55,057 bases of DNA, taken from assembly GCA_027083695.1 (NCBI GenBank), contig JALWNI010000058.1:1-55057 (forward strand), read 5' to 3'. The DNA is from Nautiliaceae bacterium (lineage in GTDB: Bacteria; Campylobacterota; Campylobacteria; Campylobacterales; Nautiliaceae). Positions 3,058 through 30,173 of the stretch are shown here, in pieces (the first letter of the stretch is position 1; each line of letters starts with the position of its first letter). The notes under the pieces are model-generated. The model ran no database searches, was not told where the DNA came from, and saw only the letters and a list, made by a program, of their open reading frames with translations. Both the position numbers and the translations under genes were made by a program.

Positions 3058-11722
<8,665 letters not shown>

Positions 11723-11782
11723 TTTCTTTTCTTTTTTTACTATAAAAATTCTTAATTGTTTGAAAAAATTTTTTAAAATTTC

Positions 11783-11809: not shown

Positions 11810-11920
11810 AGCCTCCTAAATGATTACAAAAATAAAGCGATGAAAACATTTATTAAAATATTGGTTTGGTATTTTTAAGTGTCGGACTCGCTTTTGCTTC
11901 TAATGTAAAACAAAACCGAA

Positions 11921-12130: not shown

Positions 12131-12139
12131 GGAGATAAA

Positions 12140-12616: not shown

Positions 12617-13137
12617 AAATGTAAAAATATTTTTCTTCTTTAAATAAAAATAATGTGGTCAAATATGGAATATTGCCAAGCGTCATATTTAAATAAATAC
12701 TTTGATTTCATTTAGTTTCGGAGTTGGTTTATAATATTTTCAAAAGGATAAAATAAATAATAAATTTTATGATAACGATGTTACGGTAATATTACCAAGT
12801 TTTTCACTTATTTATCAAATAGCTATAAATACATGTTTTAGTATTTAATATTCTTGGCAAAAGAGTTTAAACCCTCAAAATACATTATCCTTAGAATACT
12901 CAGTCGATATTAGATGAAAAAATTATAATATTTTTAACTAATTGTCTTTGTTTTGATATGATTTTATTTTCCTTGTATGGTAATAGATCTATTTGATATC
13001 TATCTCCTTACTATTGCAAATCTTACTTTTTTTAAATTTATAAATAATTTTTGTTTCTAAATTCCCCATATTTTCACAGTTTCTTTTCTTTTTTCTCGAA
13101 TAGGCTTAAATAAATTGTAAGAATATAAAAATTTTGC

Positions 13138-13143
13138 TATAAT
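13138..13143 (+). promoter_or_regulatory. Candidate extended -10 (TGCTATAAT) for rpsL
   Basis: TGCTATAAT at 13135-13143, about 32 nt before the rpsL ATG. A near-identical element precedes fusA. Confidence 0.4.
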
Positions 13144-13174
13144 TCCACACTAAAAAAATTTGTAAAGGAAGCAA

Positions 13175-13558
13175 ATGCCTACTATAAACCAATTAGTAAG
13201 AAAAGGTAGAAAAAAGGTAATTAAAAAATCTAAATCACCTGCACTTGTAAGCTGTCCTCAAAGAAGAGGAGTTTGTACAAGAGTATATACAACTACTCCT
13301 AAAAAACCAAACTCAGCTTTGAGAAAAGTAGCAAAAGTTAGACTTACAAGTGGATATGAAGTTATTAGTTATATTCCTGGTGAAGGCCATAATTTACAAG
13401 AACATAGTATTGTACTTGTAAGAGGTGGTAGGGTAAAAGACTTACCGGGGGTTAAATATCATATCGTTAGAGGTGCACTTGATACAGCAGGTGTTAAAGG
13501 TAGAGTTCATAGCAGAAGTAAATATGGTACAAAAAAATCTGAGGCTGGAAAAAAATAA
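13175..13558 (+). CDS. rpsL: 30S ribosomal protein S12
   Basis: [12 protein letters not shown] ... [16 protein letters not shown] hallmark sequence. Confidence 0.98.
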
Positions 13559-13700
13559 TTAATTTTATATAGGTTAGTATTAGGAAAATTGCAAGAGTTG
13601 TTTTTGGTTATAGTAGGAGAGTTTTTTAATGGTATTCCATTGATTAACCTCCTCACTGCCAAAAGGTAGAGTAAGTCCTGTAAATGCAGGAAAAAACTGA

Positions 13701-14186
<486 letters not shown>

Positions 14187-16519: not shown

Positions 16520-17347
16520 ATGTATTTTTCATATGAAGATATTGACAGATTAATTAACGAAGATATGACTCTTTTTGACTTAACGGAAGAATTACTTAGT
16601 ATTAAAACAAAAGGTAAAATATCTTTTTTTACAAGAAAAGAAGCAGTTGTAACTTCAAATGATTTAATAGAGATGTTATCGAACAGACTAAATTTGACAG
16701 TTACCTTTAAAGAAAAGAATGGTAAATTTATAAAAGCTGGAAGTAAACTGTTTGAATGTGAGGGAGAGAATGTATTAATTCTTTGGAAAATTGCCCAAAA
16801 TATTTATGAATATGCTTTGAGTGTTTCTACATATACTTATGAGATGGTAAAAAAAGCAAAAAAAATTAATCCAAATATAGAAATTTTAACTACAAGAAAA
16901 GTTATTCCTTTTACTAAAAAAATTGCATTAAGTGCAATAATGGATGGAGGTGCCTTGCCTCATAGAGTAACAACAACGGAAACTATTTTAGTTTTTGATA
17001 ATTATATAAATCTTTATGGAGGATGGGAAAAATTTTTTGAAGAATTTAAAAATTTAAAACATAGAGCCATTGAGAAAAAATGGGTAGTTGAATGTGATAA
17101 TTTAGAAAAAGCAAAAAAATTAATAGATTTAAAAATTGATGTAATACAACTAGATAAAGTAGATGTAGAAACAACAAAAAAAATAGTAGAAATTGCTCAT
17201 AGAAAAGATATAAAAGTTTTAAGTGCAGGTGGAATTAATAAAGAAAATATAACAGATTATGTGAAATGTGGAGTTGATGGAATTGTTACAACAGCTCCTT
17301 ATTTTGCAAAAGGAGCTGATGTTAAAGTAGTTATAAATTCTCTTTAA
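16520..17347 (+). CDS. ModD-like protein (quinolinate/nicotinate-nucleotide phosphoribosyltransferase-fold paralog)
   Basis: 275 aa with type II PRTase-like architecture (TTRKVIPFTKK, ALPHR, SAGGIN), but distinct from the bona fide nadC at 29340-30173. The ModD assignment is from memory of the family and is not verified. Confidence 0.6.
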   Translation: MYFSYEDIDRLINEDMTLFDLTEELLSIKTKGKISFFTRKEAVVTSNDLIEMLSNRLNLTVTFKEKNGKFIKAGSKLFECEGENVLILWKIAQNIYEYALSVSTYTYEMVKKAKKINPNIEILTTRKVIPFTKKIALSAIMDGGALPHRVTTTETILVFDNYINLYGGWEKFFEEFKNLKHRAIEKKWVVECDNLEKAKKLIDLKIDVIQLDKVDVETTKKIVEIAHRKDIKVLSAGGINKENITDYVKCGVDGIVTTAPYFAKGADVKVVINSL

Positions 17348-18864: not shown

Positions 18865-19143
18865 ATGGGGTATACGGTAATTGTAGATAATGATATAATA
18901 GAAGTTCATTCAGATATGTGTGATAAGCTTTTTGAAAAAAAAGAAGAGATAAGTTTTAAAGATTTAGAGTTTATAGATTTCAATAAATTTGAAGAGCTAG
19001 AAGAGATGATTAAAGATAAAGAAAATATTGTTTTTTGCGAAGAGTGTCATCCTGAGACAAGGGAGTATGACGAAGAGTGGGATGATTTTTATCAAGAATT
19101 TGATGACGAAGATGAAATTGATGATACCAGATGTGAAATATAA
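18865..19143 (+). CDS. Small highly acidic hypothetical protein with four Cys (one CxxC pair)
   Basis: 92 aa. Starts 1 nt after the peptidase stop. Contains CEEC plus two other Cys, and has a D/E-rich tail. Confidence 0.5.
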   Translation: MGYTVIVDNDIIEVHSDMCDKLFEKKEEISFKDLEFIDFNKFEELEEMIKDKENIVFCEECHPETREYDEEWDDFYQEFDDEDEIDDTRCEI

Positions 19144-19182
19144 TAAAATTGTATGTTATAATTAAGAAAAAAAGGAGAAGTT

Positions 19183-19422
19183 ATGTTTAAAGAATGTTGT
19201 CCTGAATTGATTCCTTTAATGGAGGAACTTGCAGCTAAAAATCCTCATATTGATAAACTAATTCAAAGACATAAAGAGTTAAATAAAATAATAGATGATG
19301 TTGAAGCAGGAAGAGAACATATGGATGAACTTGAACTTGAAAAATTAAAAAAAGAGAAACTTCATATAAAAGATGAAGTATATCAAGCGGTACTTCAATA
19401 TAAAAAAGAAAAAGAGGCTTAA
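19183..19422 (+). CDS. DUF465 (YdcH-like) family small protein
   Basis: 79-aa coiled-coil protein with the DKLIQRHKELNKIID ... LKKEKLHIKDE pattern typical of DUF465, from memory. Confidence 0.7.
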   Translation: MFKECCPELIPLMEELAAKNPHIDKLIQRHKELNKIIDDVEAGREHMDELELEKLKKEKLHIKDEVYQAVLQYKKEKEA

Positions 19423-19433
19423 TGCCTCTTTTG
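19411..19433 (+). terminator. Rho-independent terminator overlapping the DUF465 stop codon
   Basis: Stem AGAGGC/GCCTCT with loop TTAAT, followed by TTTTG. Confidence 0.55.
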
Positions 19434-19469
19434 ATAACTAAAAAGTGTCAAAGAAAAAACTCCAAAATA

Positions 19470-19497
19470 TTGACTTAAAATATTTTTTTGTTATAAT
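19470..19497 (+). promoter_or_regulatory. Near-consensus sigma70 promoter TTGACT-16 nt-TATAAT, upstream of the yedF-to-selB cluster
   Basis: TTGACT at 19470-19475 and TATAAT at 19492-19497, read directly. It would give a leader of roughly 135 nt. Confidence 0.55.
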
Positions 19498-19639
19498 AGC
19501 GATATTGATTGCTGTAAGGCCTTAGGTTAAGGTAGACAATGAAGCAGCAAAACTTCCAAAACGCTTCATTGCAAATATAATCAAATATAATCTGTTGTTT
19601 GTTATAAAATGGCTTTTATTTTGTTAGAAGGGGATTACT

Positions 19640-20221
19640 ATGAAAATAGATTGTAGAAATTTGGCTTGTCCTGAGCCTGTTTTAAAGACAAAAAAAGCAC
19701 TTGAAGAGATGGAAGAAGGGATTTTGGAAGTATTGGTAAATTCAATTTCTTCTATTCAAAATGTAAAAAGATTTGCACAAAATCAAGGGCTTGTAGCAGA
19801 AGAAGAAAAATTGGATAACGGAGATACGATTATTAGAATTGTAAAAGGATATGAGTGTAGTATAGTTCAACAAGAAGATAATAAAAAATTTTTGGATAAA
19901 GTGCTTTTTATTAAAGATGATAAAGTGGGTGAAGGCGAGCTTGGTCATATTTTGATGGAAGGATTTTTAAAAACTACTCTTGAATTTGACAAACTTCCTG
20001 AAATTGTTGTTTGTGTTAATAGAGGGGTGTTTTTAACTACTAAAAACGAAAAAACAATTGAGATTTTAAAAGAATTTGAAAAAAGAGGGGTTAAAATTTA
20101 TTCTTGTGGGGTTTGTATGAATCATTTCAAAATTCCACCAGAAGAACTTAAAGTGGGAGAAATAGGTAATGCTTACGATACGATGGATTTTTTACTACAT
20201 AAAAATACTATTTCATTATAA
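19640..20221 (+). CDS. yedF: YedF-like selenium-metabolism protein (TusA/SirA head with a DsrE-like tail)
   Basis: N-terminal CPxP motif (NLACPEPV). The C-terminal half (VVCVNRGVFL ... IYSCGVCMNHF) resembles the YedF family as I recall it. Same strand as selD and 2.3 kb upstream of it. Confidence 0.75.
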   Translation: MKIDCRNLACPEPVLKTKKALEEMEEGILEVLVNSISSIQNVKRFAQNQGLVAEEEKLDNGDTIIRIVKGYECSIVQQEDNKKFLDKVLFIKDDKVGEGELGHILMEGFLKTTLEFDKLPEIVVCVNRGVFLTTKNEKTIEILKEFEKRGVKIYSCGVCMNHFKIPPEELKVGEIGNAYDTMDFLLHKNTISL

Positions 20222-20237
20222 AAAATAAGGAGTTAAA

Positions 20238-21353
20238 ATGAAAAGAAGAGATTTTTTAAAAGCAAGTGCAGCAATTGGAGCGTTAAGCGCAGTGCCTAGT
20301 ATGAGTTTTGCGAATGAAGATGAAGTAAGAAAATTTAGAGTGCAATATTTTTTTAATATTAAATATCCAGAAAAAGAGTATCCAGCAAGACTTTGGAATC
20401 CAATGCCTTACAATGCTGATTATCAACATGTAAGAGTATTAAATTTTAATGGAAATTATAATAAATATGATTTAAATAATAATAATGAATATTCGGCAAA
20501 TACATTTTATGCTGAATGGGATAAGTCTGATATGCCAAAAATTGCTTTAATGGAAATGGTAATTGAAACTAAATACAGAAGTGTTCCAATTGAAAAGATA
20601 GAATGGGCTAGCAAACAAAATTTACCTTATCCAAAAGAAGTAAAAAAATATCTTTTACCAACTGCACATATTCCAACTACTGGAATCATTAAAGAATTGG
20701 CTGATAAAATTGTAGGAAATACAAAAGATAGATTTGAAAGAGTGAAAAAAATTTATTATTGGTGTACTGCACATACATATAGGGACAAAAAAGTTATCGG
20801 ATGTGGAAAAGGTGATGTTAAAAAAATGGTGAAACCGGGTAATGTTGAAGATATTTATAAACATGGTTATTTTGGTGGTAAATGTACGGATTTAAGTTCA
20901 TTATTTACTGCACTTGTTAGAGCTGCTGGAATTCCTGCAAGAGAAGTATTTGGAATCAGACTTGGAAAAAGTCATTTTGATAAAGCACTTGGAAAAAGCG
21001 ACAAACATGGATTTGCAAATATTACTACTTGGCAACATTGTAGAGCTGAATATTATATTCCGGGTGCTGGATGGATTCCAACAGACCCAGCAGATATTAC
21101 AAAACTTGAACTTGTAGAAGGCTTAAAATATGATGATCCAAAAGTTCAAACATTAGTGAAAAAATATCTCCATTCGTGGGAAATGAACTGGATGGCGTTT
21201 AATCATGCAAGAGATTTTGTTTTATATCCAAGACCTGTTCAATATCCTCTTAATATGTTTGGATATCCGTATGCTGAGGTTAACGATGATGTATTGAATT
21301 ATTATGTTCCAAAATCATTTGAATATAAAATTACATCTCAGGAACTCTTTTAA
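20238..21353 (+). CDS. Tat-exported transglutaminase-fold (Cys-His-Asp) protein
   Basis: Twin-arginine signal MKRRDFLKASAAIGALSAVPSMSFA. Transglutaminase-core motifs GKCTDLSSLFTALVRAAGIPAR and HCRAEYYIPGAGWIPTDPAD. Confidence 0.8.
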   Translation: MKRRDFLKASAAIGALSAVPSMSFANEDEVRKFRVQYFFNIKYPEKEYPARLWNPMPYNADYQHVRVLNFNGNYNKYDLNNNNEYSANTFYAEWDKSDMPKIALMEMVIETKYRSVPIEKIEWASKQNLPYPKEVKKYLLPTAHIPTTGIIKELADKIVGNTKDRFERVKKIYYWCTAHTYRDKKVIGCGKGDVKKMVKPGNVEDIYKHGYFGGKCTDLSSLFTALVRAAGIPAREVFGIRLGKSHFDKALGKSDKHGFANITTWQHCRAEYYIPGAGWIPTDPADITKLELVEGLKYDDPKVQTLVKKYLHSWEMNWMAFNHARDFVLYPRPVQYPLNMFGYPYAEVNDDVLNYYVPKSFEYKITSQELF

Positions 21354-21931
21354 TGGTAAAACGCATTGATTGTAAAAATTTAGCCTGTCCTGAACCTGTA
21401 ATTAAAACAAAAGAAGCATTAGAAAGTATGGATGAGGGGATTTTAGAAGTTGAGGTTAATTCCTTTTCATCCGTTCAAAATGTAAAAAAATTTGCACAAT
21501 CGCAAGGGTTATATGTCACTGAGAAAAAAGATGGCAAAAATACAATATTGACTATTGTTAAAGGTTATGAATGTGAATTGCCCCCTCAAAAAGAGGATAA
21601 ATCCTTTTGGGCTTTAATAGCTGGGGCTGTAATTACTGCAATTTTAGCTAGCACCTGTTGTTTGGGCCCTCTTTTATTTTTAGTTTTTGGAATTAGTGTG
21701 GGAAGTTTATCTTTTTTACATATATTTGCTCCTTATCATATATATTTTTCAATTGCGGCAGTTTTGATTATTTTATATCTTTGGGGTAATTACTTTTTTA
21801 AACTTAGAAAAAGACCGGTATGTGAGGGTAGCATTTGCAAAAATTATGTGAAATATTTGAGTATTGGGACTATTTTTGTGGCTATTATGCTAACATACCC
21901 ATATTGGGCTCAATTTTTAATAAAGGATTAA
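21353..21931 (+). CDS. Fusion protein: TusA/SirA-like domain joined to a MerT-like three-helix membrane domain
   Basis: NLACPEPV head. TM1 carries vicinal Cys followed by GP (ASTCCLGPLLF). A basic loop carries a second Cys pair (KRPVCEGSICK). Start overlaps the previous stop (TAATG). Confidence 0.75.
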   Translation: MVKRIDCKNLACPEPVIKTKEALESMDEGILEVEVNSFSSVQNVKKFAQSQGLYVTEKKDGKNTILTIVKGYECELPPQKEDKSFWALIAGAVITAILASTCCLGPLLFLVFGISVGSLSFLHIFAPYHIYFSIAAVLIILYLWGNYFFKLRKRPVCEGSICKNYVKYLSIGTIFVAIMLTYPYWAQFLIKD

Positions 21932-21932
21932 A

Positions 21933-22214
21933 ATGAAAAAATTTTTATTTTTAATAATTTTTATGGTTTTTGCTTTTGGAGCAAAAAAAGAAGCTATTAT
22001 AATTGTTGATGGAATGACTTGTCCGTTATGTACAACGGCTGTAAAAAGTTCTTTAAAACACACACCAGGGGTTATAAGTGCAAAAGTAATTTTGCACAAT
22101 AAAACAGCAACTGTTATTTATGATGATACAAAAACAAATCCTAAAAAATTATTAAAAGCAATTGAGATTGTAGGATATAAAGGAAAAATAAAAGAGATAA
22201 AGGATGTAAAATGA
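21933..22214 (+). CDS. MerP-like periplasmic heavy-metal-associated (HMA) domain protein
   Basis: Signal peptide MKKFLFLIIFMVFAFG followed by GMTCPLC in a ferredoxin-like HMA fold. Lies 1 nt after the TusA-MerT gene. Confidence 0.75.
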   Translation: MKKFLFLIIFMVFAFGAKKEAIIIVDGMTCPLCTTAVKSSLKHTPGVISAKVILHNKTATVIYDDTKTNPKKLLKAIEIVGYKGKIKEIKDVK

Positions 22215-22567
22215 AAATTTTATTTATTTTTAATCATGAGCCATATGATGGAAGTGATGTAACTTGGAATGGACTTAGACTTGCAAAAAATTTATTTGAA
22301 AGAGGAGAAGAAGTTAGAATTTTTCTTATGAATGATTCTGTGGATTTGGCAAGAGAATGTAATAAAAAACCTGATAATTATGATTTTGACTTGGTTGAGA
22401 TGTTAAAAGAAATGTATAAAAACGGAGTAAAACTGAAAGTCTGTGGGACTTGTCAGGCTAGATGTGGGCTTTATAAAAATGAGCCTTATTTTGCACCTGA
22501 GATTAAAGGCACAATGAATGATTTGGCAGATTGGGTTCAAACAAGTGATAAAATTTTGACTTTTTAA
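22211..22567 (+). CDS. DsrE/DsrF-like family protein
   Basis: 118 aa with the MKILFIFNHEPYDG ... VCGTCQARCG pattern typical of DsrE-like proteins. ATGA overlap with the upstream gene. Lies 8 nt before selD. Confidence 0.7.
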   Translation: MKILFIFNHEPYDGSDVTWNGLRLAKNLFERGEEVRIFLMNDSVDLARECNKKPDNYDFDLVEMLKEMYKNGVKLKVCGTCQARCGLYKNEPYFAPEIKGTMNDLADWVQTSDKILTF

Positions 22568-22575
22568 GGGAAAAA

Positions 22576-23610
22576 ATGGAATATAAAAACAAAAAACTTA
22601 CAAAATATGTAAAAGCGGCTGGGTGAGCAGGAAAACTGGCTCCGGGAGAGCTAGAAGGTGTGACCTGTTGTCTAGATAAAAAAGCTGAAAATTTAATTGT
22701 AGGATTTGAAGGTAATGAAGATGCAAGTGTTTATAAATTAAGTGATGATATTGCTTTAATTCAAACAGTGGATTTTATTACACCTGTTGTGGATGATCCT
22801 TATCTTTATGGACAGATTGCAGCTGCTAATTCTTTGAGTGATGTTTTTGCTATGGGGGCAGATGTAAAAACTGCTCTTAATTTGGTAGGTTTTGACAGTT
22901 GTCATCATGATAAAGAGACATTAAATGAAATTTTAAAAGGGGGAGAGAGTAAAGTTAAAGAGTGTGGAGGAGTTTTAGCAGGTGGGCATACAATAGAAAC
23001 GCCTGAGATGCTTTATGGATTAAGTGTAACAGGTATTGCTAATCCTAAAAAAATTATAAGAAATAACACAGTTAAAGAAGGTGATTTAATTATTCTTACA
23101 AAACCTCTTGGAATGGGAATTTTAACAACTGCAATAAAAGCGGATTTAGTTGGAATGGATGTAGTATTGAGAGTTGCTGATATTTTAAGAGAACTTAATT
23201 ACAAAACTTCTATTTTGGCAAGAGAAGTTGCAAATGCAATGACTGATGTTACAGGATTTGGACTTTTGGGGCATTTGTATGAGATGAGTGCGGATAAAAT
23301 GGGCATAAAAGTTTATTTTGAAAAAGTGCCTTATTTAAAAGAAGCAATAGAGATGGCAAGTATGGGAATAATTCCTGCTGGAAGTTACAATAATCAGGAA
23401 TTTTTAAAAGATAAAGTTGAGAAAAAAAGAGAGCTTAGTTTTGAAGAAGAGATGATTTTGTATGATGCTCAAACAAGCGGAGGACTTTTGATAAGTGCAG
23501 AAGAAAAAGAGGCTTTTAATTTAGTGAATAAATTAAAGAATGAAGGAGTAAATGCTTCTATAATCGCGGAAGTTAGCAAACAAGAGGAAAAGCCTTTAAT
23601 TATTTTATAA
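22576..23610 (+). CDS. selD: Selenide, water dikinase (selenophosphate synthetase), a selenoprotein with UGA-encoded Sec17
   Basis: ATG at 22576 after AAGGG. The reading MEYKNKKLTKYVKAAG-U-AGKLAPGELEG aligns with E. coli SelD LTQYSHGAGCGCKISP. The in-frame TGA at 22624-22626 sits at the catalytic Cys17 position, with Lys20 conserved. The ORF track starts only at 22660. Confidence 0.9.
22636..22654 (+). promoter_or_regulatory. Candidate bacterial SECIS hairpin for the selD UGA
   Basis: CTGGCTC-CGGGA-GAGCTAG forms a 7-bp stem (one G-U pair) with a G-rich apical loop. It begins 10 nt after the UGA. A possible lower stem is CAGG (22628-31)/CCTG (22664-67). Confidence 0.6.
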
Positions 23611-23658
23611 TCTTCATTTTTTCTCCTTTTTTGGTAAAATAAGTTAAAAAGGCTTATT

Positions 23659-25005
23659 ATGCAAAATCTTTTTAGGCAGATTCCTAAAGTTGATAAATTA
23701 ATTCAGAAATTTAAAAAGCATGATAAAGATATTATTTCAAAAATAACAAAAGAGATAATTGAAAAATTAAGAGAAGATATAAAAAATAAGAAAATTACTG
23801 AAATTAATGAAAATAAAATTTTAGAGAATATAGAAAAAAAATATAAAGATATATTATCTCCTTCAATTAAAAATGTAATAAATGCCACAGGAGTTATTAT
23901 TCACACAAATCTTGGAAGAAGTTTGATTGATGAAGAGGTTTTTGAAAAAGCAAAAAAAATCAGTACGCATTATTGTAATCTTGAATATGATTTAGATAAA
24001 GGCAAAAGAGGAGATAGATATCATCATACGGCAAAACATTTGAGTTTTCTTTTTGGCAGTGAAGATGCGTTGATTGTAAATAATAACGCTGCGGCAGTGT
24101 TTTTAATTCTTAACACTTTTGCAAAAAACAAAGAAGTTATTGTTTCAAGAGGTGAGCTTGTAGAAATCGGAGGAAGTTTTAGAGTGCCGGAAGTTATGAA
24201 TGCAAGCGGAGCTATTTTAAAAGAAGTTGGAACCACCAATAAAACTCACAGGAAAGATTATATAAATGCAATTAATGAAAATACTGCAATGCTTATGAAA
24301 GTTCATAAATCAAATTATTCTATTGAAGGTTTTAGTGCTGAGGTTTTTTTTGATGAAATTATAAAAATGGCAAGAGAATATAAATTACTTGATTATTATG
24401 ATTTAGGAAGTGCATATGTGCCAAAACTTCCATATTCATTAAGTAATTATGAACCTTCAATTCTTGAAATTATGAAATATAATCCAAGCTTAGTGAGTTT
24501 TAGCGGAGATAAACTGTTTGGAGGAGTTCAAGCTGGAATTATTCTTGGGAAAAAAGATCTTATAGCAAAACTTAAACAAAATCAGATTTTAAGAATGTTT
24601 AGAGTTGATAAAATAACAATATCTCTTATTGAAGAGACTGCAATTGCATATATTAAGAAAAATTACGATAAAATTCCAACATTAAAAATGCTTTTTACTT
24701 CTGTGGATGAACTTGAAAAAAGAGCTGAAAGATTTTTATCTTTTGTTCCATCGCTAAAAGCCAAAATAATAGAAACTTATACATATGTAGGCGGTGGAAC
24801 AATGCCAAATAAAAAAATTCCTAGTATTGCAGTGGCAATTGATGGAAATGCTAAAAAATGGGAAGAAAAGTTTAGAAAAAATCTTGTAATCGGCAGAATT
24901 GAAAATGAAAAATTTTTACTTGATTTTAGGACAATTCAAGAAGATGAAATAGAAAAATTAGCACAAATTACAAATGAATTATTAAGCTGTAAGGTAGAAA
25001 AATGA
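23659..25005 (+). CDS. selA: L-seryl-tRNA(Sec) selenium transferase
   Basis: 448 aa of the SelA family (NATGVIIHTNLGRS, FSGDKLFGGVQAGII with the PLP lysine). Overlaps selB by 4 nt. Confidence 0.95.
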   Translation: MQNLFRQIPKVDKLIQKFKKHDKDIISKITKEIIEKLREDIKNKKITEINENKILENIEKKYKDILSPSIKNVINATGVIIHTNLGRSLIDEEVFEKAKKISTHYCNLEYDLDKGKRGDRYHHTAKHLSFLFGSEDALIVNNNAAAVFLILNTFAKNKEVIVSRGELVEIGGSFRVPEVMNASGAILKEVGTTNKTHRKDYINAINENTAMLMKVHKSNYSIEGFSAEVFFDEIIKMAREYKLLDYYDLGSAYVPKLPYSLSNYEPSILEIMKYNPSLVSFSGDKLFGGVQAGIILGKKDLIAKLKQNQILRMFRVDKITISLIEETAIAYIKKNYDKIPTLKMLFTSVDELEKRAERFLSFVPSLKAKIIETYTYVGGGTMPNKKIPSIAVAIDGNAKKWEEKFRKNLVIGRIENEKFLLDFRTIQEDEIEKLAQITNELLSCKVEK

Positions 25006-26831
25006 GACATATAATTATTGGGACTGCTGGGCATGTAGACCATGGTAAAACATCTTTAATTGAAGCAATGACAGGTTATAATGGAGATGAGTTAAAAGAA
25101 GAAAAAGAAAGAGGTATTACAATTGATTTATCTTTTACAAATATGAAAAGAGATGATGTAAATGTAGCTTTTATAGATGTTCCAGGGCATGAGAAGTTAG
25201 TAAAAAATATGATTAGCGGTGCTTTTGGATTTGATGCTACACTTTTTGCTATTGATGTAAATGAAGGGATTATGCCTCAAACAATTGAGCATTTGGAAGT
25301 TTTGAATATTTTAAAAGTTCAAAATATTATTGTGGCTCTTACAAAATGTGATTTGGCAAGTGAAGAATTAATAGAAAAACGAAAAGAAGAGATAAAAGAA
25401 CTTATTAAAAATTATAAAAATTTAAAATTACTTAATATTATTCCAACTTCAATAAAAGATAAAGAGTCTATTGAAAGGCTTAAAGATTATCTTTTTAATC
25501 TGCCTCCTAGAAAATTAAATACTTCAAAATTTTTTAGATATTACATAGATAGAGTGTTTTCTCTAAAAGGTATAGGAACAGTTGTAACAGGGACGGTTCT
25601 TAGCGGTAATTTGAAAGTAGGAGATAAAGTTTATGTTAATGAGCTTGAAAAAATTATTAATGTAAAAAATCTTCAAGTCCATGGAGAAAATGTAAATGAA
25701 ATATTTACTCATGAAAGAGCAGCAATAAATCTTAATATTCCTCATAAAGAACTTCAAAAAGGATATTTATTAAGTTCAAAAGGCTATCTTAGAGGATTTA
25801 AATTAATTGATGTATATATTGAGCCTGTAAATGGTAAAGAAATAGCACATAATATGGATGTATTGTTTATTAGTGGAGCAAAAAGAATTCCGGGTAAAAT
25901 ATTAATGTTTAATCCAAATGACAAAAAAGGTTATGCTACTATTAAATTAAAAGAAAAAGCATATCTTGTTTATAAAGACCCTTTTGTAGTTCTTCATAAT
26001 GGTAGAGTTGTTGGAGGAGGCGAAATATTAAATCCAATAGCAGATCCTATTAAAAAAAGAAAAAAAATTGAATTATTAAAAGAATTAAAAGAGTCTAATT
26101 TTAAAAAAGCATTTGAAATTTTAGTTGAGAATCATAAAAGAGGATTCGGTCTTTTGCAAAGTTATCAAAGATTTAATTTAACTCCAAAAGAAGCACTAAA
26201 TATTGCAAAAGAGCTTGATAATGTATTTATTGATGAAGAAAATTATAATGTTTTTCACAAAAATGTAAGAGGCGAGATTAAAAAAATCATTAAAGATATT
26301 TATGAAAAAAATGCTTTGGCTTTTCTATCTCCTGCATCTGTGAAACTTAGGATAAAATGGGCAAGTGAAGGTATTATAAAATCTGTTATGGATGAATTGG
26401 TAGAAGAGGAATTTTTGGTAAAAGAAGGCTCAATTTATAAAAAAAGAGATGTGGCAAATGCAAATGTTGAAAAATCAGTAGAAAATAGACTTCTTGCCAT
26501 ATTAGAAAACTCTGGTGCTACACCCGAAGCACCTTATAATATTTATGAAAAACTTAATATTGATAGAAAAGTTGGAGATAATACAATGAAAAAATTGACT
26601 TCTGCCAAAAAAGTAGTAAGACTTGCTCATAATATATTTGTAGCAAGCAATCATTTGAATAATATGATAAATAAAATGAAAGAGATAATTAAAAAAAGAG
26701 GTTATATTGATGTCAAAATTTTCAAAGAAGAGATGCCAATGAGTAGGAAATATATAGTTGCGTATTTGGATTATTTAGATCAAATGGGGGATATAATTAA
26801 GATAGATAATAAAAGATATTTAAAATCTTGA
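25002..26831 (+). CDS. selB: Selenocysteine-specific translation elongation factor
   Basis: 609 aa with GTPase motifs GHVDHGKT, DVPGHEK and TKCD, plus a long C-terminal extension consistent with SECIS-binding winged-helix domains. Confidence 0.95.
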   Translation: MRHIIIGTAGHVDHGKTSLIEAMTGYNGDELKEEKERGITIDLSFTNMKRDDVNVAFIDVPGHEKLVKNMISGAFGFDATLFAIDVNEGIMPQTIEHLEVLNILKVQNIIVALTKCDLASEELIEKRKEEIKELIKNYKNLKLLNIIPTSIKDKESIERLKDYLFNLPPRKLNTSKFFRYYIDRVFSLKGIGTVVTGTVLSGNLKVGDKVYVNELEKIINVKNLQVHGENVNEIFTHERAAINLNIPHKELQKGYLLSSKGYLRGFKLIDVYIEPVNGKEIAHNMDVLFISGAKRIPGKILMFNPNDKKGYATIKLKEKAYLVYKDPFVVLHNGRVVGGGEILNPIADPIKKRKKIELLKELKESNFKKAFEILVENHKRGFGLLQSYQRFNLTPKEALNIAKELDNVFIDEENYNVFHKNVRGEIKKIIKDIYEKNALAFLSPASVKLRIKWASEGIIKSVMDELVEEEFLVKEGSIYKKRDVANANVEKSVENRLLAILENSGATPEAPYNIYEKLNIDRKVGDNTMKKLTSAKKVVRLAHNIFVASNHLNNMINKMKEIIKKRGYIDVKIFKEEMPMSRKYIVAYLDYLDQMGDIIKIDNKRYLKS

Positions 26832-26904
26832 TTTTTCCTTTTTTGTTATTTAAGATAAGGGTCTGAGTAAATTATCTAATATAAAAAAACGCTAAAAATT
26901 GTGA

Positions 26905-26919
26905 GGCTACACCGTAGCC
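26905..26919. terminator. Hairpin between convergent selB and the small periplasmic protein gene (possible bidirectional terminator)
   Basis: GGCTAC-ACC-GTAGCC, flanked by the outer inverted pair AACGCT/AGCGTT and by A/T runs on both sides. Confidence 0.4.
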
Positions 26920-26932
26920 CTAATAAGCGTTA

Positions 26933-27283
26933 TCAGCCAGCAGGTATTTTACCCTCAACAATACCAACTAAAAAGTCTTCTAAATCTTTTAGTTTTCTTT
27001 TGTTGTGGGCAAAATATTTTTCAATAATTTTTGCTGCTTTTTTGTAACCTTTTTTTTCAAGTATTTGAATTAAAGGTTTTGCATCATCTTTAAATAATGC
27101 TTTTAATTGAGATGGTGTCTGAACGCCTAAAATTTGAACCATCTTTGTCGCTTTAATATGCGTTTTGTGAGTGATATATCTTTTGTAATATCTGAAACCT
27201 TTGTTGTAGTCTGCAAACACGGCAGTTGTTCCAACACTCGCAAGTAGCAAACCTGCTACTAAAGCATTTCTGAACAATTTCAT
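26933..27283 (-). CDS. Small secreted/periplasmic hypothetical protein
   Basis: The internal ATG at 27283 has an AGGAG RBS and opens a clean signal peptide, MKLFRNALVAGLLLASVGTTAVFA. The 169-aa track ORF would run through tRNA-Sec, so its upstream part is spurious. Confidence 0.65.
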   Translation of the reverse strand: MKLFRNALVAGLLLASVGTTAVFADYNKGFRYYKRYITHKTHIKATKMVQILGVQTPSQLKALFKDDAKPLIQILEKKGYKKAAKIIEKYFAHNKRKLKDLEDFLVGIVEGKIPAG

Positions 27284-27316
27284 TTGAGTCTCCTTTAAAA
27301 ATTTAACTGCATTTAT

Positions 27317-27345
27317 ATTATAACATTGAATGAGAAAAATTTCAA
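27317..27345 (-). promoter_or_regulatory. Candidate promoter TTGAAA-17 nt-TGTTATAAT for the small periplasmic protein gene
   Basis: Read on the minus strand: TTGAAA at 27345-27340 and TATAAT at 27322-27317, with an upstream TG. Confidence 0.45.
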
Positions 27346-27354
27346 GAATATAAT

Positions 27355-27380
27355 AAAAAGTTATGAATAAAGATTCATAG
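27355..27380 (-). terminator. Hairpin plus T-run immediately after tRNA-Sec
   Basis: TATGAAT-CTTT-ATTCATA on the minus strand, followed by ACTTTTTATT. Confidence 0.45.
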
Positions 27381-27386
27381 GGGTTT

Positions 27387-27485
27387 TGGCGGAAGGGGGT
27401 AGGAATCGAACCTACCGGGCAAGCAGTCACCTGCCGCCCCATCGGGTTTGAAGCCCGAGGTGTCCACCAGGATCACATCCCCTCC
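27387..27485 (-). tRNA. selC: tRNA-Sec (anticodon UCA)
   Basis: 99 nt. The minus strand reads GGAGGGGATGTGATCC...GGGCTTCAAACCC...GGTAGGTTCGATTCCTACCCCCTTCCGCCA. It has anticodon loop CTTCAAA, a long variable arm (GGGGCGGCAGGTGACTGCTTGCCC), an extended acceptor stem and an encoded CCA. Confidence 0.92.
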
Positions 27486-27516
27486 AATGAGGAATATAAT
27501 TATAACAAAAATATTT

Positions 27517-28377
27517 TTATTCCAAAAGTTTTAAAGCAAGTTCTGTAAGTTTGTTTCTATATATATTTTGTAAATCCACCCAAGCGAGTGTTTCGTGTGG
27601 CAGGAGTTGTTGAAGTCTAAAAAGTCCGCTATCTTGTTTTGAGATAGTAGAATATGTTTGATGAATATCTCCAAGTAAAAAAAGTTTGCTTCCTTCACTC
27701 ATTCTTGAAAGTATCATACTCATATATTCTCTTGTCACAAGTTGTACCTCATCAACTATTAAAATTTCTCCTTCAAGAATTGAAACTCCTTGAATCATAT
27801 TAAGAGGGATTATTTCAAATTTTTCGAAAAAAAGTTGGGATTTGATCGAATCGTAATTTTGTCCTTTAATATTTCTATATAAAAAATTTAAGGCACTTAA
27901 AAATCCTCCAGCCCATTCAAGCATTTTTTCATCTTTGCTTCCGGGTAGAAATCCTATATCATAAGCACTGCTTATTCCAATGGGAGGACGGGTAATAAAT
28001 ATTTTTCTGTTTGTAAGAGCAAGAGCGGTAGCAGTAGCAAGCAATGTTTTTCCACTTCCAAAACGCCCTGTAAGAAGAGTAGCAGGAGATTCTTTTAAGG
28101 CATAAATAGCGCATTTTTGATATATATCAAGAGGTGTAAAAATTTGAGCATTTTTTATTCTTAATTTACTTGTCTCAGGAATATTGTCAATTCTTTCAAT
28201 CCCTTTATATGGATTATAACAATACGCTAAATCTCTCATTTCATCATTTGTAATAACAAAATCCCATGGTTTTAATTCATAATTGAATTTTTCTTTAATA
28301 TATTTTTTAAAATCATTAACAGGTTTTATTCCTAAAAAATGTCCAAATTCAAAATTTTTATCTTCTATTAAAATCAT
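27517..28377 (-). CDS. Divergent PhoH-like ATPase
   Basis: Walker A GRFGSGKT. PhoH-type motifs ITRPP...GFLPGSKDEK and VDEVQ...LLGDIHQ. The N-terminal ~95 aa are unassigned. Confidence 0.75.
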   Translation of the reverse strand: MILIEDKNFEFGHFLGIKPVNDFKKYIKEKFNYELKPWDFVITNDEMRDLAYCYNPYKGIERIDNIPETSKLRIKNAQIFTPLDIYQKCAIYALKESPATLLTGRFGSGKTLLATATALALTNRKIFITRPPIGISSAYDIGFLPGSKDEKMLEWAGGFLSALNFLYRNIKGQNYDSIKSQLFFEKFEIIPLNMIQGVSILEGEILIVDEVQLVTREYMSMILSRMSEGSKLFLLGDIHQTYSTISKQDSGLFRLQQLLPHETLAWVDLQNIYRNKLTELALKLLE

Positions 28378-28384
28378 TTCCTCC

Positions 28385-29347
28385 TTAATGAAAAATTTTG
28401 TGATTTATAAAAATTGCCAGCATAAAAATTAAAAGCATAAAAACGCTCATGGCTATTGCATATTTTCTATAAGTTTTTGCTTTTTTTTCTTCCCACCATG
28501 TTTTAGGTTTGATTCCTTGAAATCTAAATGTAATAACACCAGATAAAATAAGACTTACAACATTTATTAAAAATAAAAGCAAAGCCGAAACAGAAAATAT
28601 AATATACCCTCCCCCAAGCAGCATTCCACTTGCTACGAGAGGTGGAAGGAGTGAGATTGCAACCATTACACCTACAAGACTCAAATTATAGCCTGTTGTA
28701 AAAGCTAAAACTCCGGCAATCCCTGAGGATATAGCAATAATAATATCTGAATAGTGAAGATGTATTCTTGAACTTATTTGTGATAGATTAGGAGAGATAT
28801 GAAGTAAAAAACCAAATAAAACAGCTAGCATATAAGCAATAAAACTGCCACTAAAAAGAGCTTTAAATCCTTTTTTGACTAAATTCATATCCCCTAATGT
28901 AATTCCAAAAGATGCCGCAATATTTGGTCCAAGCAGAGGTGCTATTACCATTGCTCCTATAATTACTGCAACGTTATTTGTTGCAAATCCAAATATTGCT
29001 ATTAATGCAGATAAAACAAGCATTATAAAATAGATATAGTTTATTTCTGTTGAATGCAAAATTTTGGCATATAACTCTTCTCTGCTTACTTTTATCCTCT
29101 TTTTAGTCGATGTTTGGGGAGTTGGAAGTGTGGTGATTACATCTAATACGATAATTCTTATATCTTTTATTTTGTTTAATTTATCGATTAAAGTTTGTGA
29201 ATAGGGAGTTTGTATTAAAATTTTGTAGGCAAGTTTGTTTTTATATGACTCTTCTTGCCAATAATCTACAATTCCTTTGGTATTGAATATATTTTTTAAA
29301 TCATCTTTACTTTCTTTTGGTAAAATAATTTCTATTAATCTATACAT
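28385..29347 (-). CDS. DUF389 / TIGR00341-like integral membrane protein
   Basis: Soluble N-terminal domain followed by about 6 TM helices, with IGAMVIAPLLGPN typical of DUF389 (from memory). Confidence 0.7.
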   Translation of the reverse strand: MYRLIEIILPKESKDDLKNIFNTKGIVDYWQEESYKNKLAYKILIQTPYSQTLIDKLNKIKDIRIIVLDVITTLPTPQTSTKKRIKVSREELYAKILHSTEINYIYFIMLVLSALIAIFGFATNNVAVIIGAMVIAPLLGPNIAASFGITLGDMNLVKKGFKALFSGSFIAYMLAVLFGFLLHISPNLSQISSRIHLHYSDIIIAISSGIAGVLAFTTGYNLSLVGVMVAISLLPPLVASGMLLGGGYIIFSVSALLLFLINVVSLILSGVITFRFQGIKPKTWWEEKKAKTYRKYAIAMSVFMLLIFMLAIFINHKIFH

Positions 29348-30173
29348 TTTCTATTTTCATTGAAAAATCTTTAAATGTCGCTTGATGAATAATAGCACCG
29401 CTGCTTACTGCGTCAATACCTAAATTTTCATACTCTTTTATATTTTCAAGTGTAATATTCCCGCTTGCTTCAAGCAGTATTGAGGGATTGTTTTTATTTC
29501 TGTATTCTACTACTTTTTTGATAGTCTCAAAATCCATATTATCACACATTACAATATCTGCACCAGCTGAGATGGCTTCTTTTGCCTGCTGTAAAGTTTC
29601 ACATTCAATTTCTATTTTTGTGGTAAAAGGTATTGAATTTCTTGCAATTTGTATAGCTTGTGTAATTGATTTAAATGTTGCGAGGTGAGTATCTTTTAGC
29701 ATCAAACAATCATCAAGTCCAAGCCTGTGATTTGTAACTCCCCCACATTTACTTGCATATTTTTCAAAAGTCCTAAGAAGTGGTCTGGTTTTTCTAGTAT
29801 CGAGTATTTTTAATTTTTTTGCATGTTTGGTAAATTTGTATGCATTAGAAGCTATTCCGCTTGCATGTTGTAAAATATTTAAAATACTTCTTTCTATACT
29901 TAAAATATCTTTTGCATTTCCGCTGATTATAAAAATAACATCGCCTTCTTTATAAAAATCACCATCATCAAAATTAAAATCAAATTTTACATCGGCTAAG
30001 TAACTGAATTTTTTAATATATTCTATTCCAGCGACAACTCCTTCACTTTTTGCAATAATTTTGGCATTGATTAATCTGTTTGGAATAAGTTCTCTTGCTA
30101 AATCGCCCCTTCCTATATCTTCTTTTAAAACCTCTTTTAAGAAATCTATTATCTGGAAATTCATCAGATTCAT
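29340..30173 (-). CDS. nadC: Nicotinate-nucleotide diphosphorylase (carboxylating)
   Basis: 277 aa of the QPRTase family (DTRKTRPLLR, HRLGLDD, LEASGNI). Overlaps nadA by 4 nt. Confidence 0.93.
   Translation of the reverse strand: MNLMNFQIIDFLKEVLKEDIGRGDLARELIPNRLINAKIIAKSEGVVAGIEYIKKFSYLADVKFDFNFDDGDFYKEGDVIFIISGNAKDILSIERSILNILQHASGIASNAYKFTKHAKKLKILDTRKTRPLLRTFEKYASKCGGVTNHRLGLDDCLMLKDTHLATFKSITQAIQIARNSIPFTTKIEIECETLQQAKEAISAGADIVMCDNMDFETIKKVVEYRNKNNPSILLEASGNITLENIKEYENLGIDAVSSGAIIHQATFKDFSMKIENV

What the first reader, a model, noticed from the sequence alone, without database searches (positions are those of the whole stretch)
19640..27485. Complete Sec-decoding island in which selD is the sixth gene of a tight thiol-relay/transport cluster: candidate undescribed selenium acquisition and delivery system
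Eight co-directional genes (19640-26831) are packed with spacings of -4 to +48 nt. There are overlaps at 21353 (TAATG), 22211 (ATGA) and 25002, and only 8 nt between the DsrE-like gene and selD. In order they are a YedF-like protein, a Tat-exported transglutaminase-fold protein, a TusA-MerT fusion, a MerP-like periplasmic CxxC protein, a DsrE-like protein, then selD (Sec-containing), selA and selB. tRNA-Sec lies about 0.55 kb beyond, on the opposite strand. Only selD/selA/selB/selC have established functions. All five upstream products are cysteine-based carrier or transport folds. The window has no YedE/FdhT-type permease, no merA/merR, and no sulfur-oxidising or sulfur-reducing enzyme. Inference: they form a periplasm-to-SelD selenium relay. 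The proposed route is MerP-like CxxC, then the MerT-like CC pair, then the cytoplasmic Cys pair, then the fused TusA Cys, then YedF/DsrE-like carriers, then SelD. This would substitute for the YedE/YedF route (FdhT/FdhU in C. jejuni) proposed elsewhere.
Basis: partly seen in the sequence, partly recalled or inferred. Interest (0 to 1): 0.85.

Follow-up and report, generated by a model that had tools for sequence, protein, structure and literature searches.

The report
Candidate selenium uptake cassette beside selD
A selenocysteine operon in a deep-sea-vent bacterium (family Nautiliaceae) also carries a conserved three-gene set: an exported cysteine enzyme, a mercury-transporter-like membrane protein and a small periplasmic metal-binding-type protein; this set recurs next to selenium genes across the phylum Campylobacterota and is a plausible but untested candidate for the dedicated bacterial selenium importer that has not yet been found.

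Summary
Eight co-directional genes (19640-26831) with spacings of -4 to +48 nt encode YedF, a Tat-exported transglutaminase-fold protein (TGase), a TusA-MerT fusion, a MerP-like protein, a YchN/DsrE-like protein, Sec-containing SelD, SelA and SelB. tRNA-Sec lies 560 nt beyond on the other strand.

The interpretation needs reshaping. In about 70 related Campylobacterota loci the conserved unit is only TGase + MerT-like + MerP-like. YedF and the DsrE-like gene form a separate module. In Nitratifractor salsuginis that module sits with selA-selB, away from the cassette. The window's operon merges the two modules.

SelD is the commonest neighbour of the cassette. It occurs in 21-26 of about 64 loci, against fewer than one expected, and in at least six gene arrangements. 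The TusA domain fused to MerT is a YedF-type domain, 64% identical to the operon's own YedF.

About half of the loci show no selenium gene. Several sit beside sox sulfur-oxidation genes. No experiment exists. Absence of yedE from the genome could not be tested.

Best reading (about 0.5): a Mer-style thiol relay that imports selenium for SelD. The main rival is zero-valent sulfur import. I found no paper that describes the cassette.

The parts
19470..19497 (+). promoter-like site (TTGACT-16-TATAAT with an extended TG) ahead of yedF
   Evidence: It is one of the two best sigma-70 consensus matches in the scan of 19000-27600, with 11 of 12 positions. It is a consensus match only. The site is conserved in L001.
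19520..19532 (+). short inverted repeat CCTTAGGTTAAGG in the yedF leader; a possible operator or RNA hairpin
   Evidence: It occurs upstream of yedF in the window, L001, L004 and L041, with symmetric changes (CCTTA/TAAGG against CCTAA/TTAGG). Only 2 other matches were found in 0.93 Mb on both strands. There is no Rfam match. Its function is unknown.
19640..20221 (+). yedF, long form (TusA/SirA-like N-domain plus DsrE-like C-domain)
   Evidence: TIGR03527 scores 197.7 bits against a cut-off of 110. It has the CPEP motif (Cys10) and the CGVC motif (Cys156/159).
20238..21353 (+). Tat-exported transglutaminase-fold protein: an Ig-like N-domain plus a Cys-His-Asp core, with three invariant cysteines
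   Evidence: PF01841 scores 73 bits and the TAT signal 24.2 bits. C189, C216, H267, C268 and D283 are invariant in 26 close and 13 distant homologues. The AF2 model has pLDDT 80.8; its best PDB match is 3isr, a putative cysteine protease.
21353..21931 (+). fusion of a YedF-type TusA domain with a MerT-like three-helix membrane protein
   Evidence: PF01206 scores 65 bits and PF02411 38.8 bits. The best NCBIfam match of the N-domain is YedF (62.9 bits). The N-domain is 64% identical to the operon's own YedF over 84 aa. C12, C102/C103 and C157 are invariant; C74 and C162 are nearly so. Loop charges place the TusA domain and the C157/C162 loop in the cytoplasm.
21933..22214 (+). MerP-like periplasmic HMA protein with a GMTCPLC motif
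   Evidence: PF00403 scores 58.6 bits. The MerP equivalog scores 56.7 bits, below its cut-off of 92.55. There is a signal-like hydrophobic segment at residues 4-26. The motif GMTCPLCT is nearly invariant in about 65 loci.
22211..22567 (+). YchN/DsrE-like small protein with a CGTCxxxC motif, 8 nt upstream of selD
   Evidence: PF02635 scores 68.4 bits. The nearest solved structure is E. coli YchN, 1jx7. The best 120 relatives listed are 69-97% identical. In N. salsuginis it sits in a yedF-dsrE-selA-selB operon.
22576..23610 (+). selD (selenophosphate synthetase) with Sec at codon 17 (UGA at 22624-22626)
   Evidence: Translation. TIGR00476 scores 327.7 bits. The UGA is conserved in 21 loci. A hairpin lies at 22639-22651.
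23659..25005 (+). selA
   Evidence: TIGR00474 scores 546 bits.
25002..26831 (+). selB
   Evidence: TIGR00475 scores 319 bits and the SelB winged-helix domain is present.
27391..27485 (-). tRNA-Sec (selC)
   Evidence: ARAGORN finds anticodon TCA. Rfam RF01852 scores 67.6 bits.

Best explanation
The operon joins two modules to the Sec machinery.

Module 1 is the conserved Campylobacterota cassette: TGase, (TusA-)MerT-like and MerP-like. I propose that it works as a Mer-style thiol-exchange importer for selenium, not mercury:
1. In the periplasm, the exported Cys-His-Asp enzyme mobilises or captures selenium from its environmental form, for example selenium held in polysulfide or thiol adducts.
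2. It passes the selenium to the CPLC dithiol of the MerP-like protein, probably as an S-Se-S chelate.
3. The selenium moves by thiol exchange to the CC pair in the first MerT helix.
4. It moves on to the cytoplasmic-loop cysteine(s) C157 (and C162).
5. It reaches the fused YedF-type TusA domain (C12). This domain plays the part that the N-terminal domain of MerA plays for mercury.

Module 2 is YedF plus the YchN/DsrE-like protein. It is the cytoplasmic carrier set that hands selenium to SelD (Sec17). SelD makes selenophosphate for SelA.

Shown here: gene content, cysteine conservation, topology signals, the modular structure, and the genomic linkage to selD, selAB, mnmH and yedF.

Inferred: the substrate, the direction of transport, every transfer step, and the role of the TGase.
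For: 1. Operon integration in the window: overlaps or gaps of 16 nt or less from yedF to selD, and no excess of terminators.
2. Loci were retrieved only through TusA-MerT. In an unbiased clustering of their neighbours, SelD is the top non-cassette family, with 19 loci by ORF clustering and 21-26 by tblastn. The flanks total 739 kb, so fewer than one hit is expected for a single-copy gene in a genome of about 2 Mb (the genome size is my assumption).
3. 18 of 33 TGase clusters at 80% identity have a selenium gene in the flank.
4. At least six arrangements keep the linkage: selD downstream on the same strand; selD divergent upstream; selD convergent together with a HAD-like gene; selD upstream on the same strand; mnmH adjacent; selB-selA convergent next to a Sec-type formate dehydrogenase.
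5. The fused TusA domain is a YedF paralogue. YedF is statistically tied to SelD (PMC5322559, PMC2432076 and PMC4607533).
6. The MerT cysteines are conserved, and loop charges place the TusA domain in the cytoplasm.
7. The DsrE-like gene also travels with yedF-selAB in N. salsuginis.
8. TusA/TusD transcripts rise about 4.5 log2-fold under Se starvation in Methanococcus maripaludis (PMC11097638).
9. There is no merA, merR or yedE in the window or in any locus.
Against: - Roughly half of the loci with 8-10 kb flanks show no selenium gene (6-7 of 13 do). One example without any is Campylobacter sp. CCUG 57310.
- In Sulfurospirillaceae the cassette follows soxCDXYZAB, a SoxH-like gene and a periplasmic DsrE-like gene, co-directionally. 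soxB is divergent from the cassette in L008, and sox genes lie 4 kb away in Aliarcobacter.
- TusA, DsrE and YedE-type sets are also proposed sulfur-handling clusters, such as the YTD cluster.
- The HMA protein resembles copper and mercury binders equally well.
- The wider TGase family keeps all its cysteines in contexts without MerT or MerP, so its chemistry is not selenium-specific.
- Part of the selD linkage could be inherited synteny and not repeated selection.
- No Sec-containing variant of any cassette protein was seen.
- No expression, binding or mutant data exist.
Confidence: 0.5

Rival explanations
1. The cassette imports zero-valent sulfur (sulfane, polysulfide or thiosulfate-derived sulfur) into the cytoplasm, where TusA/DsrE-type carriers take it up. 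This would parallel YeeE/TsuA-TsuB, SoxT and the YTD clusters. On this view its position next to sel genes in the window is secondary.
For: - TusA and DsrE are sulfur-relay folds.
- In L010, L015, L023 and L025 the cassette sits directly downstream of a complete sox cluster plus a periplasmic DsrE-like gene. soxB is divergent in L008, and sox genes are near in L067.
- A TtrA-like periplasmic molybdoenzyme is inserted in the L001 operon and follows the cassette in L047.
- YedE-TusA-DsrE clusters and YeeE-like SoxT are linked to sulfur disproportionation and sulfur import.
Against: - Selenium genes are far more frequent neighbours than sox genes: 18 of 33 clusters against about 4-5.
- In the window the cassette is embedded between yedF and selD with overlapping genes.
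- The fused domain is of the YedF type, not the TusA or TsuB type.
- From general knowledge, these organisms live in sulfide-rich settings and use periplasmic Sox or sulfur reduction, so they have no obvious need for high-affinity sulfur import.
Confidence: 0.2
2. The cassette handles a soft metal (Hg, Cu, Cd, Ag or a thiometallate) as in canonical Mer or Cop systems. The nearby selenium genes are coincidental, or reflect protection of selenium metabolism from thiophilic metals.
For: - Pfam MerT and HMA matches lie above their gathering scores.
- A GMTCxxC motif and a MerT-type CC pair are present.
- The HMA domain matches Cu-ATPase domains and MerP.
- The organisms come from metal-rich vent habitats (record titles).
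Against: - There is no merA, merR, merB or P-type ATPase in the window or in the conserved neighbourhood. From general knowledge of mer systems, uptake without a reductase would be harmful.
- The NCBIfam MerT and MerP equivalog cut-offs are missed by a wide margin: 46.9 against 150, and 56.7 against 92.55.
- Fusion to a YedF-type TusA domain and recurrent selD adjacency have no metal rationale.
- The cassette lies in core chromosome, not on a mobile element.
Confidence: 0.1
3. The cassette has some other periplasm-to-cytoplasm thiol or redox function centred on the TGase enzyme, such as envelope protein processing or thiol maintenance. Its adjacency to selD is mostly inherited gene order within Campylobacterota.
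For: - The TGase is the most conserved component (57-91% identical among the best 120 relatives listed).
- It belongs to a broad Tat-exported family found without MerT or MerP elsewhere.
- Many cassette loci lie among housekeeping genes.
Against: - Gene order decays quickly in bacteria unless it is functionally maintained. Here the linkage survives at least six rearranged architectures across Nautiliaceae, Sulfurovaceae, Nitratifractor, Arcobacteraceae and others.
- The YedF-type fusion is an independent link to selenium.
Confidence: 0.15

Closest known systems
MerT/MerP mercuric-ion uptake of mer operons (Tn501/Tn21 type)
   Same: - A periplasmic HMA protein with GMTCxxC and a signal peptide.
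- A roughly 110-aa three-helix membrane protein with a CC pair in helix 1 and cysteine(s) in the positively charged loop between helices 2 and 3.
- The two genes are adjacent.
- The expected mechanism is thiol-to-thiol ligand exchange.
   Different: - There is no merA, merR, merB or merD.
- Scores fall far below the NCBIfam MerT and MerP equivalog cut-offs.
- The MerT part is often fused to a cytoplasmic YedF-type TusA domain.
- It is always preceded by a Tat- or Sec-exported transglutaminase-fold gene.
- It is chromosomal and confined to Campylobacterota.
- Its usual neighbours are selD, selAB, mnmH and yedF.
YedE/YedF (FdhT/FdhU in C. jejuni), the candidate selenium transport and carrier pair
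   Same: - A membrane protein with essential cysteines is paired with a TusA-like YedF protein.
- It is genomically tied to SelD and to Se-dependent formate dehydrogenase.
- YedF itself is present here.
   Different: - The membrane partner is MerT-like (3 helices), not a YedE/YeeE-family permease.
- No yedE lies in the window or in any related locus.
- Periplasmic components (TGase and MerP-like) are added.
- YedE's own role in Se transport is still unproven.
YeeE(TsuA)/YeeD(TsuB) thiosulfate uptake, SoxT, and YTD (YedE-TusA-DsrE) clusters of sulfur metabolism
   Same: - The logic is the same: a transporter hands a chalcogen to a cytoplasmic TusA-like cysteine and on to DsrE-type carriers.
- Some cassette loci adjoin sox genes.
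   Different: - The transporter fold differs.
- The TusA domain matches YedF better than it matches TsuB or TusA.
- The dominant neighbours are selenium genes, not sulfur genes.
Bacterial transglutaminase-like cysteine proteases (PDB 3isr from Cytophaga hutchinsonii; TgpA periplasmic domain 6g49)
   Same: - An Ig-like N-domain plus a transglutaminase core with a Cys-His-Asp triad.
- Foldseek E = 6e-15 and TM-score 0.54/0.68 to 3isr.
   Different: - Only 13% identical.
- It has two further invariant cysteines (GCG and QHC).
- It carries a Tat signal and is coupled to MerT/MerP-like genes.
- None of these relatives has a known substrate.

Membership tests
YedF, long form (TIGR03527 selenium_YedF) | Full-length HMM match above the curated cut-off; TusA/SirA N-domain with CPxP and DsrE-like C-domain with CGxC | tested here: met
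   It scores 197.7 bits against a cut-off of 110 and covers 3-190 of 193 residues. CPEP and CGVC are present.
YedF, long form (TIGR03527 selenium_YedF) | Occurrence in SelD-positive genomes, often next to selD | tested here: met
   It lies in the same operon as selD in the window. It also lies next to sel genes in L004, L012, L041, L065 and L078.
MerT mercuric transporter | Pfam PF02411 match above the gathering score | tested here: met
   38.8 bits against 32.9, residues 86-188.
MerT mercuric transporter | NCBIfam MerT equivalog score (orthology to functional MerT) | tested here: not met
   NF010314 scores 46.9 bits against a cut-off of 150; the MerTP fusion model scores 44.7 against 180.
MerT mercuric transporter | CC pair in the first transmembrane helix and a cysteine pair in the cytoplasmic loop | tested here: met
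   C102/C103 are invariant, C157 is invariant, and C162 is present in most loci but is Ser in about 15. The loop at 147-166 has 5 K+R residues.
MerT mercuric transporter | mer operon context (merR, merA) | tested here: not met
   Neither gene is in the window or among the conserved neighbours in 66 loci.
MerP periplasmic mercury-binding protein | HMA fold, signal peptide and GMTCxxC | tested here: met
   PF00403 scores 58.6 bits. A hydrophobic N-terminus spans residues 4-26. GMTCPLC is nearly invariant.
MerP periplasmic mercury-binding protein | NCBIfam MerP equivalog score | tested here: not met
   TIGR02052 scores 56.7 bits against a cut-off of 92.55. CopZ and UxxU models score about the same.
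DsrE/TusD sulfur-relay proteins | PF02635 match; equivalog match to TusD or DsrE | tested here: inconclusive
   The Pfam DsrE match is met (68.4 bits). The TusD equivalog scores 30.1 bits against a cut-off of 89.25, so it is not met. The closest solved relative is YchN, of unknown function.
Transglutaminase-like cysteine protease superfamily | PF01841 core with a Cys-His-Asp triad; fold match | tested here: met
   73 bits. C216, H267 and D283 are invariant. Foldseek matches 3isr at E = 6e-15. Catalytic activity was not tested.
Bacterial Sec-decoding trait (selA, selB, selC, selD) | All four genes present and intact | tested here: met
YedE/YedF (FdhT/FdhU) system | YedE/YeeE-family permease adjacent to yedF | tested here: not met
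   tblastn with E. coli YedE finds nothing better than E = 1.1 in the window or in about 0.9 Mb of related loci. The rest of the genome could not be tested.
Dedicated selenium importer (functional class, none established) | Selenium-dependent phenotype, Se binding or transport | not testable with these tools
   Only genomic association is available. Reviews state that no such system is known.

The most novel reading that the evidence does not exclude
The TGase + MerT-like + MerP-like cassette is the first dedicated, high-affinity selenium importer described in bacteria. It would be a mercury-transporter-type thiol relay repurposed for selenium, fed by a periplasmic Cys-His-Asp enzyme that mobilises selenium from sulfidic or polysulfide-bound forms. 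It would deliver selenium through a fused YedF-type domain and YedF/YchN-like carriers directly to SelD, taking the place proposed for YedE.
Probability: 0.35. Interest if true: 0.85.

Novelty: new variant of a known kind. Interest (0 to 1): 0.62.

Why it matters
How bacteria acquire trace selenium specifically, against a large excess of sulfur, is an open question. A 2024 study and a 2026 review both state that no dedicated selenium transporter is known in any prokaryote. The one candidate, YedE, gave no clear phenotype when deleted in Methanococcus.

This cassette is a concrete, testable alternative in a phylum that depends on Sec-containing formate dehydrogenases and lives in sulfide-rich habitats. 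Genetically tractable relatives (Aliarcobacter, Campylobacter) carry it.

If the proposal is confirmed, it would show three things:
- A Mer-type thiol-exchange channel can carry a metalloid nutrient.
- YedF/TusA and YchN/DsrE-like proteins have a defined place in selenium delivery to SelD.
- A large family of exported transglutaminase-like proteins gains a first function.

It would also correct the routine annotation of these genes as mercury transporters.

Tried and rejected
- Riboswitch in the 217-nt yedF leader: no Rfam match, and the fold energy is not exceptional (z = -0.67). Only a short conserved inverted repeat remains.
- Sec-containing variants of cassette proteins: no in-frame UGA at any conserved cysteine of the TGase, MerT, MerP, DsrE-like or YedF proteins in about 75 loci.
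- Function of the TGase from distant homologues: contexts outside Campylobacterota were uninformative or the contigs were too short. The fold search returned only uncharacterised proteases.
The anti-correlation with yedE therefore remains untested.
- Literature: seven searches found no description of the cassette. That is absence from the held library only.
- Canonical mercury resistance: rejected as a membership claim because the equivalog cut-offs and the operon context are not met.
- The AF2 model of the TusA-MerT fusion: the TusA domain is confident (pLDDT about 86), but the membrane part is weak (49-80) and pTM is 0.38. I used it only for helix boundaries.

Full report
**What is in the window**

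The stretch 19640-26831 holds eight co-directional ORFs with spacings of +16, -1, +1, -4, +8, +48 and -4 nt. Profile searches identify them as follows:
- long-form YedF (TIGR03527, 197.7 bits against a cut-off of 110);
- a protein with a twin-arginine signal and a transglutaminase core;
- a TusA domain fused to a MerT-like membrane domain;
- a small HMA protein with a signal-like N-terminus;
- a DsrE-family protein whose closest solved relative is E. coli YchN;
- SelD, SelA and SelB.

SelD has an in-frame UGA at codon 17. The UGA is conserved in 21 related loci. tRNA-Sec lies at 27391-27485 on the opposite strand. A strong promoter-like site sits at 19470-19497, and terminator-like matches in the scanned region do not exceed the shuffle expectation.

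The rest of the window is core chromosome. The 27.5-55 kb part holds NAD synthesis, flagellar, BamA and glyQ genes. From ORF sizes and position, the first part looks like a ribosomal-protein and RNA-polymerase region; I did not check it with HMMs. There is no merA, merR, yedE or sulfur-respiration gene. The closest relatives are Nautiliaceae and Caminibacter.

**What is conserved**

I used an alignment of TusA-MerT homologues to fetch 66 loci from one genome per species. Except for one weak match in a Deltaproteobacteria MAG (L066), all come from Campylobacterota: Nautiliaceae, Nitratifractor, Sulfurovum, Sulfurimonas, Sulfurospirillum and unclassified vent MAGs.

tblastn with the window's proteins shows that almost every locus has the same three genes in the same order: TGase, MerT-like, MerP-like. 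YedF and the DsrE-like gene accompany them in only a few loci. In Sulfurimonas, Sulfurovum, S. arcachonense, Aliarcobacter and Campylobacter the MerT-like protein lacks the TusA domain.

In Nitratifractor salsuginis the operon is yedF, DsrE-like gene, selA, selB. The cassette lies elsewhere in that genome; in related Nitratifractor loci it sits with selD. The window's eight-gene operon is thus a merger of two modules with the Sec genes.

**Linkage to selenium genes**

I clustered all ORFs of the loci without prior labels. After the cassette itself, the most frequent neighbour family is SelD (19 loci). Next comes a 155-aa HAD-like gene that always sits beside selD (12 loci). Multi-copy signalling families follow, then SelA and SelB (5 loci each) and SoxB (5 loci).

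By tblastn, 21 of 62 cassette loci have selD and 24 have some selenium gene in the DNA available. That DNA totals 739 kb, so fewer than one selD hit is expected by chance for a genome of about 2 Mb (the genome size is my assumption). Two more loci have a selD fragment at the contig edge.

I collapsed the loci into TGase clusters at 80% identity and added three lineages found through a representative search: Aliarcobacter cryaerophilus, an unnamed relative, and Campylobacter sp. CCUG 57310. Of the resulting 33 clusters, 18 show a selenium gene.

The arrangements differ between lineages:
- selD immediately downstream on the same strand;
- selD divergent upstream;
- selD and the HAD-like gene convergent downstream;
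- selD upstream on the same strand;
- mnmH adjacent;
- selB-selA convergent, next to a formate dehydrogenase whose catalytic subunit is split as expected for a UGA codon.

Linkage that survives such rearrangement across families argues for functional coupling. Part of it may still be inherited.

**The fusion domain**

The TusA domain fused to MerT matches the YedF model (62.9 bits) better than the TusA or TsuB models. It is 64% identical over 84 residues to the N-domain of the YedF encoded three genes upstream. YedF (SirA-like) is the accessory protein most consistently associated with SelD in comparative studies. This is a second link to selenium, independent of gene order.

**Sequence features that bear on mechanism**

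- The MerT part keeps the CC pair in helix 1 (invariant), C157 (invariant) and C162 (Ser in about 15 loci). C157 and C162 lie in a loop with five Lys/Arg residues. The loop between helices 1 and 2 has no charged residue. The TusA domain has no signal peptide. Together these features place TusA and the C157 loop in the cytoplasm, as in MerT.
- The MerP-like protein has a nearly invariant GMTCPLCT motif.
- The TGase is the most conserved component: the best 120 relatives listed are 57-91% identical. It has the Cys216-His267-Asp283 triad and two further invariant cysteines (C189 and C268).
- Its model (pLDDT 80.8) matches only uncharacterised transglutaminase-like proteases.
- Some orthologues carry an N-terminus without the twin arginines, which looks like a Sec-type signal. 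Export matters, but a Tat-dependent cofactor is unlikely.
- Homologues at 34-43% identity outside the cassette keep all these residues. The enzyme's chemistry is therefore general and its role here is unknown.

**Proposed mechanism**

The best-supported model is a Mer-style thiol relay for selenium:
1. periplasmic capture by the TGase and the MerP-like CPLC dithiol;
2. exchange onto the MerT CC pair;
3. transfer to the cytoplasmic loop cysteine(s);
4. transfer to the fused YedF-type domain;
5. transfer to YedF and the YchN/DsrE-like carrier;
6. transfer to SelD.

Selenium bound between two thiolates (S-Se-S) is chemically analogous to Hg(SR)2. That makes reuse of a mercury-type relay plausible; this is my inference from general chemistry. 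Only the parts list, the cysteine conservation, the topology signals and the genomic association are shown. Every transfer step, the substrate and the direction of transport are inferred.

Supporting context from the literature:
- TusA/TusD transcripts rise about 4.5 log2-fold under selenium starvation in Methanococcus maripaludis, and deleting yedE gave no clear transport phenotype there.

**Evidence against, and rivals**

- About half of the well-flanked loci show no selenium gene.
- In Sulfurospirillaceae the cassette lies co-directionally after soxCDXYZAB, a SoxH-like hydrolase, a periplasmic DsrE-like protein and a cytochrome c, with a 148-nt gap. soxB is divergent in L008, and sox genes lie 4 kb away in Aliarcobacter.
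- A Tat-exported TtrA-like molybdoenzyme is inserted between yedF and the TGase gene in the window's closest relative (L001), and one follows the cassette in L047.
- Transporter-TusA-DsrE sets are established or proposed sulfur-import devices.

Zero-valent sulfur import is therefore a serious rival (0.2). A generic chalcogen importer specialised by lineage is also possible.

A soft-metal role (0.1) fits the HMA and MerT signatures. It lacks any reductase, regulator or efflux partner, and the scores miss the MerT and MerP equivalog cut-offs.

An unrelated envelope or thiol function with inherited synteny (0.15) cannot be excluded.

**Comparison with known systems and novelty**

The system works like MerT/MerP but is not a member of the functional mer families. 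It contains YedF but no YedE. It resembles YeeE/YeeD and YTD logic with a different membrane fold.

Seven literature searches found no description of the cassette or of its link to sel genes. YedF-selD linkage itself is already known.

I rate the finding as a new variant of a known kind, with interest 0.62. It is a specific, testable candidate for an open problem. It rests on comparative genomics only, and it has a credible sulfur rival.

Noticed in passing
window 19518-19575; L001 3470-3530; L004 about 80-100; L041 about 16830-16855 (-): A conserved block lies in the yedF leader just after the promoter-like site. Its core is the inverted repeat CCTTAGGTTAAGG, which changes symmetrically to CCTAAGG(N)TTAGG in other genera and is followed by AGACA. 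It may be an operator or a small RNA hairpin that controls the selenium operon. There is no Rfam match.
   Followed up: partly
L002 3278-3745; also L003, L008, L009, L011, L021, L027, L032, L041, L045, L051, L052, L060: A 155-aa HAD-like protein with weak similarity to the P-type-ATPase phosphatase domain sits directly beside selD in 12-14 loci. In L052 it sits beside mnmH. It is absent from the window. It is an unstudied candidate partner of SelD in Campylobacterota.
   Followed up: partly
L001 4174-7605; L047 about 11000-13800: A Tat-signal, FeS-fused molybdopterin oxidoreductase related to TtrA (479 bits, far below the TtrA cut-off) is inserted between yedF and the TGase gene in the window's closest relative. 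A similar gene follows the MerP-like gene in a Sulfurimonas MAG. It could be a periplasmic reductase for a sulfur or selenium compound.
   Followed up: partly
L010 86-8740; L015, L023 and L025 likewise; L008 6910-8682 (-); L067 320-4973: A complete sox cluster (soxCDXYZAB), a SoxH-like metallohydrolase, a DsrE-like protein with a signal peptide and a cytochrome c lie immediately upstream of the cassette in Sulfurospirillaceae. sox genes are also nearby in Sulfurovaceae and Aliarcobacter.
   Followed up: partly
L043 6322-7464; L033 and L052: tRNA 2-selenouridine synthase MnmH (484 bits) lies within 1-3.5 kb of the cassette in three loci.
   Followed up: yes
L073 11667-21045: In an Arcobacter-like contig, selB-selA converge on the cassette and are followed by a formate dehydrogenase operon. 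Its catalytic subunit is called as two ORFs (186 and 752 aa), as expected for an in-frame UGA. selD lies 7 kb upstream.
   Followed up: partly
L078 5396-9679 (Nitratifractor salsuginis CP002452): The operon here is yedF, DsrE-like gene, selA, a 51-aa ORF and selB, separate from the cassette. This shows that YedF plus the DsrE-like protein form a module of their own.
   Followed up: yes
window 26933-27283 (-): A gene for a small protein of about 116 aa with a signal peptide and no family match lies between selB and tRNA-Sec. It has its own promoter-like site (27345-27317). The mechanical ORF call (169 aa) overlaps the tRNA-Sec gene and is probably too long.
   Followed up: partly
window 16520-17347 (+) and 29340-30173 (-): There are two quinolinate-phosphoribosyltransferase-family genes in one window. 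The second lies beside nadA and is probably nadC. The first is a divergent paralogue (QRPTase_C, 114 bits) of unknown role.
   Followed up: no
alignment A2 (P0142, P0150, P0166, P0174): Some cassette TGases lack the twin-arginine motif and look like Sec-exported proteins. In about 15 loci the second loop cysteine of the MerT-like protein (C162) is Ser, so only C157 is universal.
   Followed up: partly
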